Assembly: GCF_009914755.1 (NCBI RefSeq)
Contig: NC_060926.1
Source of the DNA: the human T2T-CHM13v2.0 reference genome, Homo sapiens
Length of the DNA stretch: 64,000 nt
Direction: 5' to 3' (one strand)
The notes beneath the pieces are model-generated. The model ran no database searches. It was not told the origin of the DNA and saw only the letters and a list, made by a program, of their open reading frames with translations. Every line of letters starts with the position of its first letter. Position 1 is the stretch's first letter. Position numbers and translations under genes: made by a program. Below are positions 33,495 through 42,017 of the stretch, in pieces.

Positions 33495-33899
33495 CGTTCC
33501 TGGGCATCCCTATTAAGATGTGCAGATAAACACGCACATGCTTCATGTGGCATCTCCCTTAGTTAAACATCTTTTTTTTTTTTCCTTTCCTGTGAGTCTT
33601 CCTGAAACAGGTGAGCCCAGGTGGAGCCTCCGCCTGCGTTAGGACCTAACCTTTCTACGTCTTTATGAAATCCCTGGTGTCAGTTACTGCTGCTTCCCCT
33701 CACCAGCTTCTTTCCTTTGGTCTACCCTAAGAATGTGATACCCAACACAATACACCGTCTCTTTGGCCCACTCAAGACATTCTGGTGATGCCCTGTGGCC
33801 TGCTGGCCCCCACTAGCTATCAAGGTCCCCCATCATCTCACCTTTCCTGGCTCATGGGCTTTATTTTATGCCACTCTTCATGCTCAGAAGCACCTGGCG

Positions 33900-34313
33900 G
33901 TTTAGTTTTTTTGTGTTGCTCTAAAGGAATACCTGGGGCTGGGTAATGTATAAGGAAGAGATAATATCTGGCCCTCAGTTCTGCAGGCTGTATAAGAATC
34001 ATGGTACCAACATCTGTTTCTGGCAAAAGACTTGGGCTACTTCCACTCATGGCAGAAGGTGAATGTGGAAGGTGCTGATCACAAGGTGAGAAAGAAGCAA
34101 GAGAAAAAGGAGGGGTTGCCAGGATCTTTTTAACAATCAGTTCTTGCAGGAGCAATAGGACAGGAACTCACCCATTATCGGGAAAAACATACTAGGTCAT
34201 TTGTGAGAGATCCATCCCTGTAACCCAGATACCTCCCACTAAGCCCCACCTCCAACATTAGGGATTAAATTTCAACACTTGACTTGAGGGAGTCAGATAT
34301 CTAAACTATATCA
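33900..34313 (-). mobile_element. MST LTR (paralog of 42593-43003)
   Basis: ggctgggtaatgtataagg...ctaaactatatca. Shares its right flank with the 42593-43003 copy. Confidence 0.75.
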
Positions 34314-34667
34314 TTTGATATGGTCAGTCTTTTTGATTGCAGCTATTCTAATGGGTATGTAAATTAAATTGCAATTTTAATTTGATTTTCCTATTTAAAT
34401 ATGATGTTGAGCATCTTTACGTGTGACTGTTTGCCATCTGTATATGTTCTTTGGTAAATGTTCAGGTCTATGCCACTTTTTAAGAAATTGGGTTTTCTCT
34501 TCATTATTGAGGTTTAAAAGTTATTTATATATTCTGGATATTTATACTTTATCAGTTTCTGGGCTTTTTTCCATGAAACTTTTTATTTTAGAAGAAATTT
34601 AGATTTATGCAAGGTTGCAAGAACTAGCACAGAGAATTTTCATATCCTGTGCCTAGTTTCCTCCTCT

Positions 34668-34962
34668 TTTTTTTTTTTTTTTGAGACAAAGTGTCACTCT
34701 GTCACCCAGGCTGGAGTGCAGTGGGGCAATCTTGGCTCACTGCAACCTCTGCCTCCTGGGTTCAAATGATTCTTGTGCCTCAGCCTCCTGAGTAGCTGGG
34801 ATTACAGGTGCACACCACCATGCCCAGCTAATTTTTGTATTTTTAGTAGACACAGGGTTTCACCATGTTGACCAGGCTGGCCTCAAACTCCTGACCTCAA
34901 GAGACCCACGGACCTTGGCCTCCCAAAGTGCTGGGATTACAGGTGTGAGCAATGGCACCCAT
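34668..34962 (-). mobile_element. Alu (AluS)
   Basis: Antisense dimeric Alu with poly(T). Confidence 0.93.
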
Positions 34963-35865
34963 CCTCCCCTATGGTTAAATGTTACGTTACTATAGCATAT
35001 TATCACAACTCATTAACCAACATTTGATACATTATGATGAACTAAAGTCTGTGTTCTCTGCAGATGTCATTAATTTTTACCTAATGTCCTTTTTCATTTC
35101 TAGGATCCCATCCTGGATACCAAATGACATTTAGCCCATCACGCCCCCTTCATCTCCTGTACCGTGTGACAGTTTTTCAGACTTTCCTTGTTTTCGATGA
35201 CTTTGACAGTTTTGAGCAGTTCTGGTCGGATGTTCTGTAGAATGTTTCTCAGTCTTGGTTTGTCTGATGTTTTGATCATGGTTAGACTGGGGTTATAGGT
35301 TTTAGGAAGTAAGACCACAAAGGTAATGTCTTTTCTTGCTTTCTTGACTATGGATAGCCAACTCTTGAAAAGAGTAGTCTTTTCTCCACTGAATTGTCTT
35401 TGCACTTTTGTAAAAACTTGGTTGTTCATACTGCTAAACATCTATTTCTGGACTTTCTACTCTGTTCCATTGATCCAGTTGTGAAATATGTGATAATTAT
35501 AGCTTTGTAATGTCTTGAAATGAGTAGTATTAGCTCTCTAATTTTTTTCAAAGTTGTTTTTGCTATTGTAGGTTTTCTACATTTCTGTATGAATTTTAGA
35601 ATCAGTTTGCCAATTTGCACAAAAAAAAGCCTGTTGGGATTTTGGTTGAAATCATATTTAAGTTACAGTTCAACTGGGGAGAAACAGCATCCTAACAATT
35701 TTGAGTTTTCCAATTCTTGAACATATCTCTATATTCAGATCTCTCCTCAGTGTTTTAGTTTTCAGTGTAGTCTTTCACATCTTTGATCAGATTTATCCCT
35801 AAGTATTTCATGTTTTTGATGTTAAGTGGTATTTTCATTCAATTTGCAATTGTTCATTGCTAGTA

Positions 35866-39102: not shown

Positions 39103-39807
39103 TTTATATAAATGAAATTAACTTTTACTTATTGTATCCTGCAACCATGCTAAACTTACTTATTTGTTCTTGGAGGTTGTTGTAGAGTTTGTTGGAATTT
39201 CCCCATAGATGATCATGTTGACTGTGAATGAGATCCTTTTACTTTTCAGATCTGGATATTTTAAATTTCTTTTTCTTGTTTGACTGCATTGAATAGAACA
39301 ATGTTGAATGGAAGTAGTAATTAGCCCCCATTCTTGGCATGTGTCTGATCTGAGGAGTGGAGCATTCAGTCTTTCACCATTAAGGATGATGTTAGCTGTG
39401 GGTTTTTCCAAGATGCCCTTCATTAGCTTTGGAAACTTCTCTTCTTTTCCTAGTTTGCTGAGAGTTTTTTTTTTTTTTTGTCAGATATGAATTTTGGACT
39501 CTGTCAAACACTTTTTCTGTAACTATTAAGATTGCTACATGGTTATACAGTTTTAGTTTATTTATATGGTATGTTACTTAGATTTATTTTTAAAGCTTAT
39601 TTATTTTATCATTAATTATGGTGAAATACACATAGCATAAACCTTGTCATCTTCACCACTTTAGGTGCACAGTTCAGTATCCAGTGTATTCACATTGCTG
39701 TGCAACCAACACCACCATTCATCTGCAGAACTCTCTTCATCTTCCCAAACTGAAGCTTGGGACCCATTAAACAATAATTGCCCATTCCCCTCTCCTCCAA
39801 GCCCTGG

Positions 39808-40494
39808 TGTAACCGCCCGGGGGATTCACCTTGCCTGCTGCCTAGACAGAGTCAATATAACAAGACAGGGGAATTGCAATAGAGAAAGAGTAATTAATGC
39901 AGAACTAGCCGTGTGGTAGACCGGAGTTTTATTATTACTCAAATCAGTCTCCCCAAGCAATTTGGGGAACAGTTTTTAAGGAATACTTGGTGGGTTGGGG
40001 GAATCCAGTAATCCAGGAGTGCTGATTGGTCAGGGATGAAATCTTAGGCAGTTGAAGCTGTCTTCTTGCACTGAATCAGTTCCTGGGTGGGGGCCACAAG
40101 AGCAGATGAGCCAGTTTATTGATCTGGGTGGTGCCAGCTGATCCATCAAGGACAGGGTCTGCAAAATGTCTCAAGCACTGATCTTAGGAGTGGTTTAGGG
40201 AGGGTCAGAATCTCGTAACCTCCATCTGCATGAATCCTAAACCATAATTTCTAATCTTGTGGCTAATGCTAGTCCTACAAAGGGAATCTAGTCCCCTGGC
40301 AAGAAGGAGGTCTGCTTTGAGAAAGGGCTGTTATTGTCTTTGTTTTAAACAACTATAAAATAAGTTTCTCCCAAAGTTGGTTCAGTCTATGTCCAGGAAT
40401 GAACAAGGACAGCTTGGAGGTTAGAAGCAAGATGGAGTCAGTTAAGTTAGATCTTTTTCACTGTCTCAGGCATAATTTTGCAAAGGCGGTTTCA
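39808..40494 (-). mobile_element. LTR8-like solo LTR (ERV1)
   Basis: 687 bp, TG...CA. The reverse complement begins TGAAACCGCCTTTGCAAAATTATG. It interrupts an L1MB-like segment paralogous to ~5790. Confidence 0.8.
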
Positions 40495-40570
40495 TTTGCA
40501 ACCACCATTCCTCTTTTTGATTCTATGAATTTCTCTATTTTAGATACCTCATACAAGTAGAATGATATAA

Positions 40571-41448
40571 CTTCCAACTTTAAGTCATTTCTTTGTCCTT
40601 GCATCTAAGTGTAGGTAGTTACAAGCAGCCAGGCCACATCTGGAATACTTTACTGCTTAGAAATTTCTTCTGCCAGATACCCTAGGTCATCACTCTCAAG
40701 TTTAAAGTTCCACAGATTCCTAGAGCATGGACTCAATGCAGCCAAGTTCTTTGTTAAGGCATAGCAAGGGTGACCTTTGCTCACGTTCCAAATAACTTCC
40801 TCATTTTCACATGAGACCTCATTAGCCTGGCCCTCACTGCTGATTTTTCTATCAGTATTTTGGTCACAAGCATTTAACCAGTCTCTAAGAAGGTCCAAGC
40901 TTTCCTTCATCTTCCTGTCTTCTTCTGAGCCCTCCAAACTCTTCAAACGTCTGCCTGCTACCAAGTTCCAAAGTTGCTTCCAAATTTTCAGTATCTTTAT
41001 AGCAACATCTCAGTACCAATTTTCTATTAGTACTATTTTCTGTTGGTACCAATTTTCTACCCTTCATTACGTTGCCATAAAGGAATGCCTGAGACTGGGT
41101 AATTTATAAATAAAAGAGGTTTAATTGGCTCAAGATTTTGCAGGCTGTACAAGCATGGCGCTGCCATCTGTTCATATTCTGGGGAAGCCTCAGGGAGTGT
41201 TTACTCATGGTAGAAGATGAAGCAGGAGCATGTCACATGACAAAAGCAGGATCAAGAGAGAGTTGGTGGGGGAGGTCCACACACTTGACCATATCTTGTG
41301 AATACTCACTGACTATTGCAAGGACAACACAAAGCCATGAGGGATCCACCCCCATGATCCAAACACCTCCCACCAGGCCCCACCTCCAACATTGGGTATC
41401 ATATTTCAACATGAGATTTGGGTGGGGACAAATATCCAAGCTATAACA
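40571..41448 (-). mobile_element. MST element: 5' LTR plus ~0.5 kb internal sequence, remainder deleted
   Basis: Internal ORF-like SLEGSEEDRKM, boundary ggtaccaattttct, and LTR end ggggacaaatatccaagctataaca. Confidence 0.8.
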
Positions 41449-42017
41449 CTGAACTGTGATTTGACATTTTCATTTGTCTCATTTGGAATTTTTTTCCAGT
41501 TTCATGAATCCTTTTGTGCCACTTCATGGACCTCTCAGTTAACAAATTTTATAATTGTAGATCATATCCAAGTTGCATTTAAAGATACTCTTTTTGGGAA
41601 AATACCAAAAACCACAGTGAGAAATGAAACTTCCCTTTTTTGCCAATTCTATAGAAAATGCTCTTAGTAGTTTTGTGTGCATCATTTTCATTTTTTGAAA
41701 TTATTTTATGCATATGCAGATATCTAATGCATATTCTCACACCTATTTTGTTAAAATGTAGTACCAGGCTGGACATATTGTTCTTTACTTTGCATTTTTC
41801 ATTTGCCAATAAATTATAGACATCTTTAGAGGCCAATACAGACTGATTTGACAAGTTCTTTCAGTAATGACATGAAAGTCTTTACTTTGGATTTAATGTA
41901 GTTTTTTCAACCAATTAATATTGATATAGATTTAGGCATTTTCCAAATTTGTCTTTTTGCACATTAGTATGTAAACACTCTTTAATACTTTCTTTACATT
42001 ACTATATTTCCATATTC
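41449..42017 (+). pseudogene. Orphan UGT1A intron-1 proximal segment with no exon (remnant of a deleted cassette)
   Basis: Aligns to ~14093-14713, ~49505-50128 and ~59505-60128, beginning ~66 nt after where the donor would be. Confidence 0.8.

What the first reader, a model, noticed from the sequence alone, without database searches (positions are those of the whole stretch)
33500..42017. Exon-less 'ghost' UGT1A cassette between UGT1A13P and UGT1A9
Seen: 33.5-40.5 kb repeats the standard upstream architecture (MST, L1M, Tigger2 in the identical TA site, L1M/L1MB). 41449-42017 is a clear paralog of the intron sequence that follows every exon 1, starting at about intron +66. The expected promoter, 855-bp exon and donor are absent. 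In their place is half of an MST element whose LTR end (41448) abuts the intron homology. Inference: a fifth 1A7-10-type cassette existed, received an MST insertion at intron +66, then lost promoter, exon and the rest of the MST in a deletion joined at ~40570. The standard locus nomenclature names no exon here.
Basis: partly seen in the sequence, partly recalled or inferred. Interest (0 to 1): 0.8.

Follow-up and report, generated by a model that had tools for sequence, protein, structure and literature searches.

The report
Exon-deleted twin of UGT1A11P cassette
Between UGT1A13P and UGT1A9 lies the leftover of an eighth UGT1A7-13-type first-exon unit, the duplicated twin of the UGT1A11P unit, which lost its promoter and exon in one deletion of about 5 kb; it is a tidy piece of locus history, not a new kind of element.

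Summary
Window 41449-42017 is a locus-specific paralogue of the intron that follows each UGT1A7-13 exon 1, starting at intron +67. It directly abuts the 3' end of a truncated MaLR retroelement (40565-41448). No trace of a promoter, exon or donor is left in 26.4-48.1 kb.

The interval is one arm of a roughly 90%-identical segmental duplication. The other arm lies 57 kb upstream and holds the UGT1A12P-UGT1A11P interval.

In that arm the same intron piece (93.6% identical) follows a complete 2,480-bp LTR-internal-LTR element inserted at about intron +62 of UGT1A11P. About 4.98 kb present there is missing here: upstream sequence, promoter, exon 1, 62 bp of intron and the 5' 64% of the retroelement. 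The two flanks meet at 40565-40568 with a 4-bp overlap (ATAT).

Intron and upstream trees both pair the ghost with UGT1A11P. The ghost is therefore the exon-deleted twin of UGT1A11P.

About a third of the retroelement survives, not half. The lost exon was probably already a pseudogene. Orthologous primate loci could not be examined.

The parts
33874..34556 (+). Repeat block at the head of the ghost unit; paralogue of 42569-43237, which heads the 1A9 unit.
   Evidence: 74.5% over 694 columns to 42569-43237; 75.8% to w-15260..-14710
34965..37726 (+). Old upstream architecture: two repeat-derived blocks (34965-36093 and 36150-37726), collinear with the stretches before 1A10, 1A7 and 1A9. This stretch is absent from the 1A11P arm.
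   Evidence: Collinear matches at 75-81%. The junction is shared with 1A9-up, and with 1A10-up/1A7-up apart from a ~760-base insert there. 36150-37726 is an interspersed repeat genome-wide.
37297..40568 (+). Ghost upstream block, the twin of w-25484..-22285 upstream of UGT1A11P.
   Evidence: 88.5% by BLAST over 3,286 columns; 90.9% identity and K2P 0.097 over 3,186 aligned bases; trees pair it with 1A11P-up at 96/94 and 100/100
40565..40568 (+). Deletion junction: 4-base overlap (ATAT) between the two flanks. About 4.98 kb of the paralogue (w-22284..-17303) is missing here.
   Evidence: The left flank aligns up to 40568 = w-22285 and the right flank from 40565 = w-17306. There is no extended similarity between the two breakpoint regions of the paralogue.
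40565..41448 (+). 3' 884 bases (about 36%) of a MaLR-type LTR retroelement: part of the internal region plus the 3' LTR (about 41072-41448).
   Evidence: 88.2% to w-17302..-16409 of the complete 2,480-base element in the 1A11P intron; interspersed genome-wide; LTR end ...TATAACA at 41448
41449..42017 (+). Paralogue of the intron after exon 1, from +67 to about +690.
   Evidence: 93.6% to the 1A11P copy; 83.6, 81.2, 80.5 and 78.8% to 1A9, 1A10, 1A8 and 1A7 in the multiple alignment; sister of the 1A11P copy at 100/99
42018..42568 (+). Downstream tail of the ghost unit, unusually close to its 1A11P twin.
   Evidence: 97% over 551 bases to w-15839..-15289; the 4 full- or near-full-length copies all lie in the locus; only 5-6 differences in about 400 bases at 41969-42371

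Best explanation
The stretch 33874-42568 is a non-functional relic of a UGT1A first-exon cassette, and it is the duplicated twin of the UGT1A11P cassette.

Inferred order of events:
(a) Old tandem duplications made the 1A7-13-type cassettes.
(b) In the common ancestor of 1A11P and the ghost, a MaLR LTR retroelement inserted at about intron +62. The donor site was left intact.
(c) A block holding at least the 12P/13P-type cassette, the 11P-type cassette and the stretch before the 8/9-type cassette was duplicated (K2P about 0.08-0.10). This gave 12P-11P-...-8 and 13P-ghost-...-9.
(d) In the window copy, one non-homologous deletion of about 4.98 kb, joined at a 4-base microhomology, removed about 2.5 kb of upstream sequence and promoter, the 849-855-base exon, the donor, about 62 bases of intron and the 5' 1.6 kb of the retroelement.

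Shown here: the paralogy, the complete pre-deletion state in 1A11P, the junction, and the absence of any exon. Inferred: the order and timing, that the deletion came after rather than during the duplication, and that the exon was already dead when lost.
For: A 92% copy of 41449-42017 lies 2.5 kb downstream of UGT1A11P. Collinear blocks at 88-92% link the window to the upstream arm: 26000-33531 with w-36726..-29711, 37297-40568 with w-25484..-22285, and 40565-43180 with w-17306..-14680. The 5 kb between w-22285 and w-17306 holds UGT1A11P.

In the paralogue, w-20184..-18892 matches the 1A9 promoter, exon and intron to +61 (85.5%). Then come the 5' LTR (w-18888..-18458), the internal part and the 3' LTR (w-16784..-16409). 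The intron resumes after that. The junction has a 4-base overlap, and the breakpoint regions share no extended homology.

The tree of 8 intron paralogues is (12P,13P)100/100, (7,((ghost,11P)100/99,(9,(10,8)))). Upstream trees give ghost+11P at 96/94 and 100/100. K2P of the duplicated blocks is 0.051-0.131, mostly 0.08-0.097. There is no exon remnant, and the positive control worked.

The 1A11P exon end branch is 0.097, against 0.026-0.043 for the four functional exons. The neutral path in the intron tree is 0.121. 1A11P carries three 1-base deletions and a stop.
Against: Only one human genome was examined, so the polarity and timing of the deletion rest on parsimony. A half retroelement cannot arise by insertion, which fixes the polarity, but timing stays open.

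Divergence between the two arms is uneven: 0.10-0.14 around the junction, down to 0.013-0.02 at 41921-42370. Later gene conversion or a compound history must be invoked.

1A8/1A9 and 1A10/1A9 are more diverged (K2P 0.116-0.125) than the 12P/13P and 11P/ghost blocks (0.05-0.10). The simple 'one three-cassette block was copied once' picture is therefore not fully consistent.

LTR-to-LTR divergence (K2P 0.31 over 366 bases) is slightly larger than the ghost/11P to 8/9/10 intron path (0.22-0.27). The model expects it to be equal or smaller. The LTR sample is small.

No clear target-site duplication was seen at the retroelement.
Confidence: 0.9

Rival explanations
1. Born deleted: the window arm never carried its own exon. 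The ~5-kb loss happened during the duplication event itself, for example by template switching or a two-piece copy, so no independent 'extra cassette with exon' ever existed.
For: The junction is a 4-base microhomology, which fits replication-based rearrangement as well as end joining. Divergence just left and right of the junction (0.10-0.14) is at the top of the range for the duplication, so nothing marks the deletion as younger.
Against: Nothing direct. It needs two coincident breakpoints in one event. The twin arms carry several other independent indels: 34039-37297 is absent from the 11P arm, an inverted LTR element at w-29139..-26448 is absent from the window arm, and 1A13P has its own promoter deletion. 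Ordinary later deletions are therefore common here.
Confidence: 0.15
2. 41449-42017 is a generic interspersed repeat or a late local copy of a single neighbouring intron, not a cassette remnant.
For: Bases 159-440 of the piece give two short hits outside the locus, so a small old repeat may be embedded in it.
Against: 10 of 12 genome matches are in the UGT1A locus, each at the same position relative to an exon 1. The nearest neighbours in the window are only 74-76% identical. The 92-94% copy is part of a collinear duplication of at least 20 kb, not an isolated intron copy.
Confidence: 0.02
3. The ghost is the ancestral state, and UGT1A11P acquired its promoter and exon by insertion or conversion from another cassette.
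For: None found.
Against: The extra 5 kb in the 11P arm runs without a break from cassette-type upstream blocks through the exon into the 5' LTR and internal part of the same retroelement whose 3' part is shared by both arms. An insertion would have had to complete a half element exactly.
Confidence: 0.01

Closest known systems
UGT1A11P cassette (pseudogene first exon with its flanks, w-25484..-14680)
   Same: Same upstream block (90.9%), same retroelement in the same intron position (88.2%), same intron piece (93.6%), same downstream tail (95-97%). It is the sister in all three trees.
   Different: 1A11P keeps the promoter, an 849-base frameshifted exon, the donor and the whole retroelement. 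The ghost lacks all of these. The ghost keeps 34039-37297 of the old upstream architecture, which the 11P arm lacks.
UGT1A13P (neighbouring annotated pseudogene)
   Same: It is also a decayed member of the same block duplication (twin of 1A12P, 91-93%), and it was also hit by a deletion that removed its promoter.
   Different: 1A13P still has most of its exon, from about codon 31 and interrupted by an Alu at 25082-25417, so it is named. The ghost has no coding remnant and so has no name.
[quoted passage not shown]
   Same: [quoted passage not shown] The paper states birth-and-death evolution for UGT1 and marks pseudogenes and relics in its maps.
   Different: Relics in that usage are, as I recall it, exon fragments. 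Here no exon sequence is left, and the unit is recognisable only by its flanks. The text I read names no unit between 1A13P and 1A9. The figure itself could not be seen.

Membership tests
UGT1A variable first-exon cassette (1A7-13 subfamily) | An exon 1 of about 855 bases encoding the N-terminal domain | tested here: not met
   tblastn with 1A9 exon 1 against 26400-48100 gave only E 1.5 and 1.6 chance hits; the control found 13 exon-1 places
UGT1A variable first-exon cassette (1A7-13 subfamily) | Own proximal promoter and GT donor | tested here: not met
   Sensitive blastn with 1A9 47667-49504 and 1A11P w-21036..-18892 found no promoter or donor match in 26400-48100 apart from repeat hits
UGT1A variable first-exon cassette (1A7-13 subfamily) | Cassette-specific intron sequence directly 3' of the exon | tested here: met
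   41449-42017 matches intron +67 to about +690 of 1A9 and 1A10, and in part those of 1A7, 1A8, 1A12P and 1A13P
UGT1A variable first-exon cassette (1A7-13 subfamily) | Collinear upstream block shared with other cassettes | tested here: met
   Same order and orientation as 1A10-up, 1A7-up and 1A9-up; shared junction; 88-91% to 1A11P-up. The blocks are repeat-derived.
Arm of the 12P-11P / 13P-ghost segmental duplication | Collinear high-identity alignment on both sides, and sister position in trees of independent segments | tested here: met
Unprocessed pseudogene | Recognisable remnant of coding sequence | tested here: not met
   It is therefore a cassette relic, not a pseudogene in the usual sense.
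Generic interspersed repeat (for 41449-42017) | Many dispersed genomic copies | tested here: not met
   10 first-look candidates, all scored; 10 of 12 matches lie in the UGT1A locus
MST (MaLR) family, for 40565-41448 | Match to the family consensus | not testable with these tools
No repeat library was available. Shown: LTR-internal-LTR structure of 2,480 bases in the paralogue and thousands of genomic relatives.

The most novel reading that the evidence does not exclude
The catarrhine (or anthropoid) ancestor carried a fourteenth UGT1A first exon between 1A13P and 1A9, and some living primates still keep it, as a pseudo-exon or even intact. Its loss would then be a lineage-specific deletion that can be dated on the primate tree. 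The ghost flanks (40300-40568 and 40565-42017) would serve as exact markers for it.
Probability: 0.3. Interest if true: 0.45.

Novelty: new member of a known kind. Interest (0 to 1): 0.3.

Why it matters
It completes the duplication history of the phenol-type half of a major drug-metabolism locus. The 1A7-13 group had eight cassettes, not seven, arranged as two parallel arms (12P-11P-...-8 and 13P-ghost-...-9). This explains why the 1A13P-1A9 spacing (about 23 kb) is about twice that of its neighbours.

It also shows a way in which a first-exon unit can vanish from gene lists while its flanks persist. That matters for counting births and deaths in such arrays.

The finding flags about 20 kb of 88-97% paralogous sequence, including a 97% tract at 42018-42568. 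This could mislead read mapping and variant calling upstream of UGT1A9.

No function is proposed for the relic itself.

Tried and rejected
- NAHR between two retroelement copies as the deletion mechanism was rejected. The two breakpoint regions of the paralogue share only chance matches of 8-20 bases.
- I considered whether the retroelement at 40565-41448 is the same as the LTR-like pieces upstream of other promoters (12116-12272 before 1A10; 23144-23633 before 1A13P), with the deletion running from there to intron +66. This was rejected. The 1A11P arm shows the element inside the intron with the exon upstream of it.
- I looked for a target-site duplication at the element in 1A11P and found none convincing.
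- The Rfam scan of 33000-43500 gave 0 matches.
- The longest mismatch-free run as a test for gene conversion was not exceptional: 102 bases against a simulated median of 65 and a 99.9% point of 131. The low-divergence tract rests on the count of differences only.
- The exon tree is star-like and does not resolve where 1A11P sits.
- Six literature searches found no description of an exon-less unit here. For Li and Wu 2007, sections 5 and 6 were read, passages and a figure legend were seen, and the three text supplements were searched and hold only functional sequences. The PDF supplements and figures were not readable. Gong et al. 2001, which defined the 13 first exons, is recalled only and was not seen.
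Full report
**Coordinates.** Positions are window coordinates. 'w-' marks positions upstream of the window on the same chromosome, in the same numbering.

**1. What is in the window**

The 569 bases at 41449-42017 align end to end with the sequence that follows UGT1A9 exon 1 (49505-50128, 74.6%, E 2e-125). They align likewise with the sequence after UGT1A10 exon 1 (14093-14713, 74.3%). They align in part with the sequences after 1A7 and 1A13P.

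The 1A9 and 1A10 exons end at 49438 and 14026, so the homology starts at intron +67.

Directly 5' of it...TATAACA at 41448 is the end of an LTR-type repeat. The stretch 40570-41448 has thousands of relatives across the genome: 11,083 first-look candidates, of which 40 were scored, with full-length matches at 72-77%.

The intron piece itself is not a dispersed repeat. Of 12 genome matches, 10 lie in the UGT1A locus, each behind an exon 1. The other 2 are short partial hits on chr17 and chrX.

No exon is left. tblastn with the 1A9 exon-1 product found only E>1 noise in 26400-48100. The same query found 13 exon-1 places in the 214-kb locus: the 11 listed in the hub table and two further downstream, which I take to be 1A2P and 1A1 from the recalled gene order. 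Sensitive blastn with promoter-plus-exon queries also found nothing.

**2. The key result lies outside the window**

The genome search returned a 92% copy of the intron piece at w-16407..-15840. This is 2.5 kb behind UGT1A11P, whose exon is at w-19804..-18963.

I fetched 60 kb upstream and 90 kb downstream of the window and compared the locus with itself. The window interval from 21838 to at least 43180 is one arm of a segmental duplication. The other arm runs from w-47806 to at least w-14680.

| Window block | Paralogous block | BLAST identity |
|---|---|---|
| 21838-24083 | w-47806..-45566 | 92.2% |
| 25417-26613 | w-37323..-36112 (1A13P with 1A12P) | 91.5% |
| 26917-33531 | w-36117..-29711 | 89-90% |
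| 37297-40568 | w-25484..-22285 | 88.5% |
| 40565-43180 | w-17306..-14680 | 91.5% |

The last two window blocks abut. Their partners are 4.98 kb apart, and that gap holds UGT1A11P.

**3. The pre-deletion state survives in UGT1A11P**

In the 11P arm the order is as follows:
- w-22358..-21024: a cassette-type upstream block, matching 5787-7136 before 1A10.
- w-21036..-20490: distal promoter region.
- w-20184..-18892: proximal promoter, exon and intron to about +61 (85.5% to 1A9).
- w-18888..-16409: a complete LTR-internal-LTR element of 2,480 bases.
- The intron then resumes exactly where it stopped. Uninterrupted paralogues read ...GATTT-CTTAC-TGAAC... across the site.

The donor GTAAGT is intact.

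The window arm keeps only the last 884 bases of that element (40565-41448, about 36%) and the intron from +67. Four bases (CTTA) present at the element-intron boundary in 11P are missing in the ghost.

**4. The junction**

The left flank of the ghost aligns to the paralogue up to 40568 = w-22285 (91%). The right flank aligns from 40565 = w-17306 (86%). The four shared bases are ATAT.

The two breakpoint regions of the paralogue have no extended similarity to each other. One non-homologous, microhomology-joined deletion of about 4,982 bases (in paralogue coordinates) explains the structure. A half retroelement cannot be made by insertion, so the window arm is the derived state.

**5. Trees**

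Eight intron paralogues give (12P,13P) 100/100 and (7,((ghost,11P) 100/99,(9,(10,8) 96/94) 100/99) 89/89). In that alignment the ghost is 93.6% identical to the 11P copy.

Two independent upstream segments also pair the ghost with 11P:
- 39297-39808: 96/94, five copies.
- 37297-37726: 100/100, four copies.

**6. Ages (inference)**

K2P between the arms:

| Compared blocks | K2P |
|---|---|
| Three 13P/12P downstream blocks | 0.085-0.092 |
| Ghost upstream block | 0.097 |
| 40565-43180 overall | 0.080 |
| U blocks, 150-4741 with 52443-57091 | 0.091 |
| 1A8/1A10 | 0.083 |
| 1A8/1A9 and 1A10/1A9 | 0.116-0.125 |
| The two LTRs of the 11P element (366 bases) | 0.31 |

The element's LTR divergence is several-fold larger than the arm divergence. 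This fits the element being present in both arms.

With a recalled catarrhine rate of about 1.1e-9 per site per year, K of about 0.085 is roughly 40 Myr. I give this only as an order of magnitude, between the recalled human-macaque and human-marmoset divergences.

The higher 1A8/1A9 values mean that the history is not a single clean copy of a three-cassette block. Unequal crossovers between cassettes probably produced a mosaic.

**7. Was the lost exon alive?**

The exon tree is star-like. The 1A11P end branch is 0.097, against 0.026-0.043 for 1A7-1A10. The neutral path for the 11P lineage in the intron tree is 0.075 + 0.046 = 0.121.

The 11P-type exon therefore seems to have drifted almost neutrally for most of its history, longer than the post-duplication branch. 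The exon copied into the window arm was probably already dead. This is a rough inference.

1A11P carries 1-base deletions at 1A9 coding positions 152, 263 and 663, and a stop at codon 254.

**8. The older 'standard architecture'**

Blocks 34965-36093, 36150-37726 and 38177-39805 are collinear with the stretches before 1A10, 1A7 and, in part, 1A9. The junction between the first two blocks is shared.

However, 36150-37726 is an interspersed repeat, and unrelated copies are as similar as the local ones. Only order and junctions argue for old paralogy. The family names and the 'identical TA site' remain unverified.

This stretch (34039-37297) is absent from the 11P arm. The two twins have therefore decayed in complementary ways.

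**9. Print**

Six full-text searches found no description of an exon-less unit between 1A13P and 1A9. Li and Wu 2007 (PMC1885805) describes birth-and-death evolution and marks pseudogenes and relics in its figure. Sections 5 and 6, which I read, name no such unit, and its text supplements hold only functional sequences. The figures and PDF supplements could not be seen. The 2001 paper that defined the 13 first exons was not available.

**10. Verdict**

The ghost is the exon-deleted twin of the UGT1A11P cassette. It is an ordinary kind of event, deletion in a birth-and-death array, documented unusually cleanly. Interest is modest.

Noticed in passing
window 41921-42568 (twin at w-15935..-15289): Divergence between the two arms drops from about 0.10-0.14 to 0.013-0.02, with 5-6 differences in about 400 bases. 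42018-42568 is 97% identical to its twin. This is probably a later gene-conversion tract between the arms; constraint is less likely, because two older copies in the locus are only 78-80% alike.
   Followed up: partly
window 23924-25674 (UGT1A13P): Compared with its twin 1A12P, 1A13P has lost the proximal promoter and about the first 30 codons (the coding match starts at 24575 = codon 31). It also carries an Alu inside the exon (25082-25417). This is a second promoter-removing deletion in the same arm.
   Followed up: partly
w-29139..-26448 (L014/L015) and window 34039-37297: The 12P-11P arm holds an inverted LTR-internal-LTR element (LTRs 84% alike, with an Alu inside) that the window arm lacks. 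The 12P-11P arm in turn lacks about 3.3 kb of old upstream architecture that the ghost keeps.
   Followed up: partly
window 7489-12046, w-11282..-6744, w-45512..-40920: A 4.6-kb block repeated at 87-88% upstream of 1A10, 1A8 and 1A12P, but not upstream of 1A13P, the ghost, 1A9 or 1A7. Parts of it recur at 43300-45360.
   Followed up: no
w-54432..-49611 (L011/L012), minus strand: An inverted partial copy of the cassette upstream architecture, matching 33874-37266 at 72-83% and 42031-42500 at about 80%. It lies upstream of UGT1A12P, at the outer edge of the cluster.
   Followed up: no
window 150-4741 and 52443-57091; w-13487..-1645 and window 5282-16981: The stretch before 1A10 and the stretch before 1A7 are 88.5% alike, although 1A10 and 1A7 themselves are only about 80% alike. 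The 1A8 and 1A10 cassettes are 90-91% alike. The cluster is a mosaic of several duplications of similar age.
   Followed up: partly
UGT1A11P and UGT1A12P exons (w-19804..-18956, w-37917..-37066): Both pseudogenes have a stop at the codon aligned to UGT1A9 codon 254. Whether this is a shared or a parallel change was not resolved.
   Followed up: no
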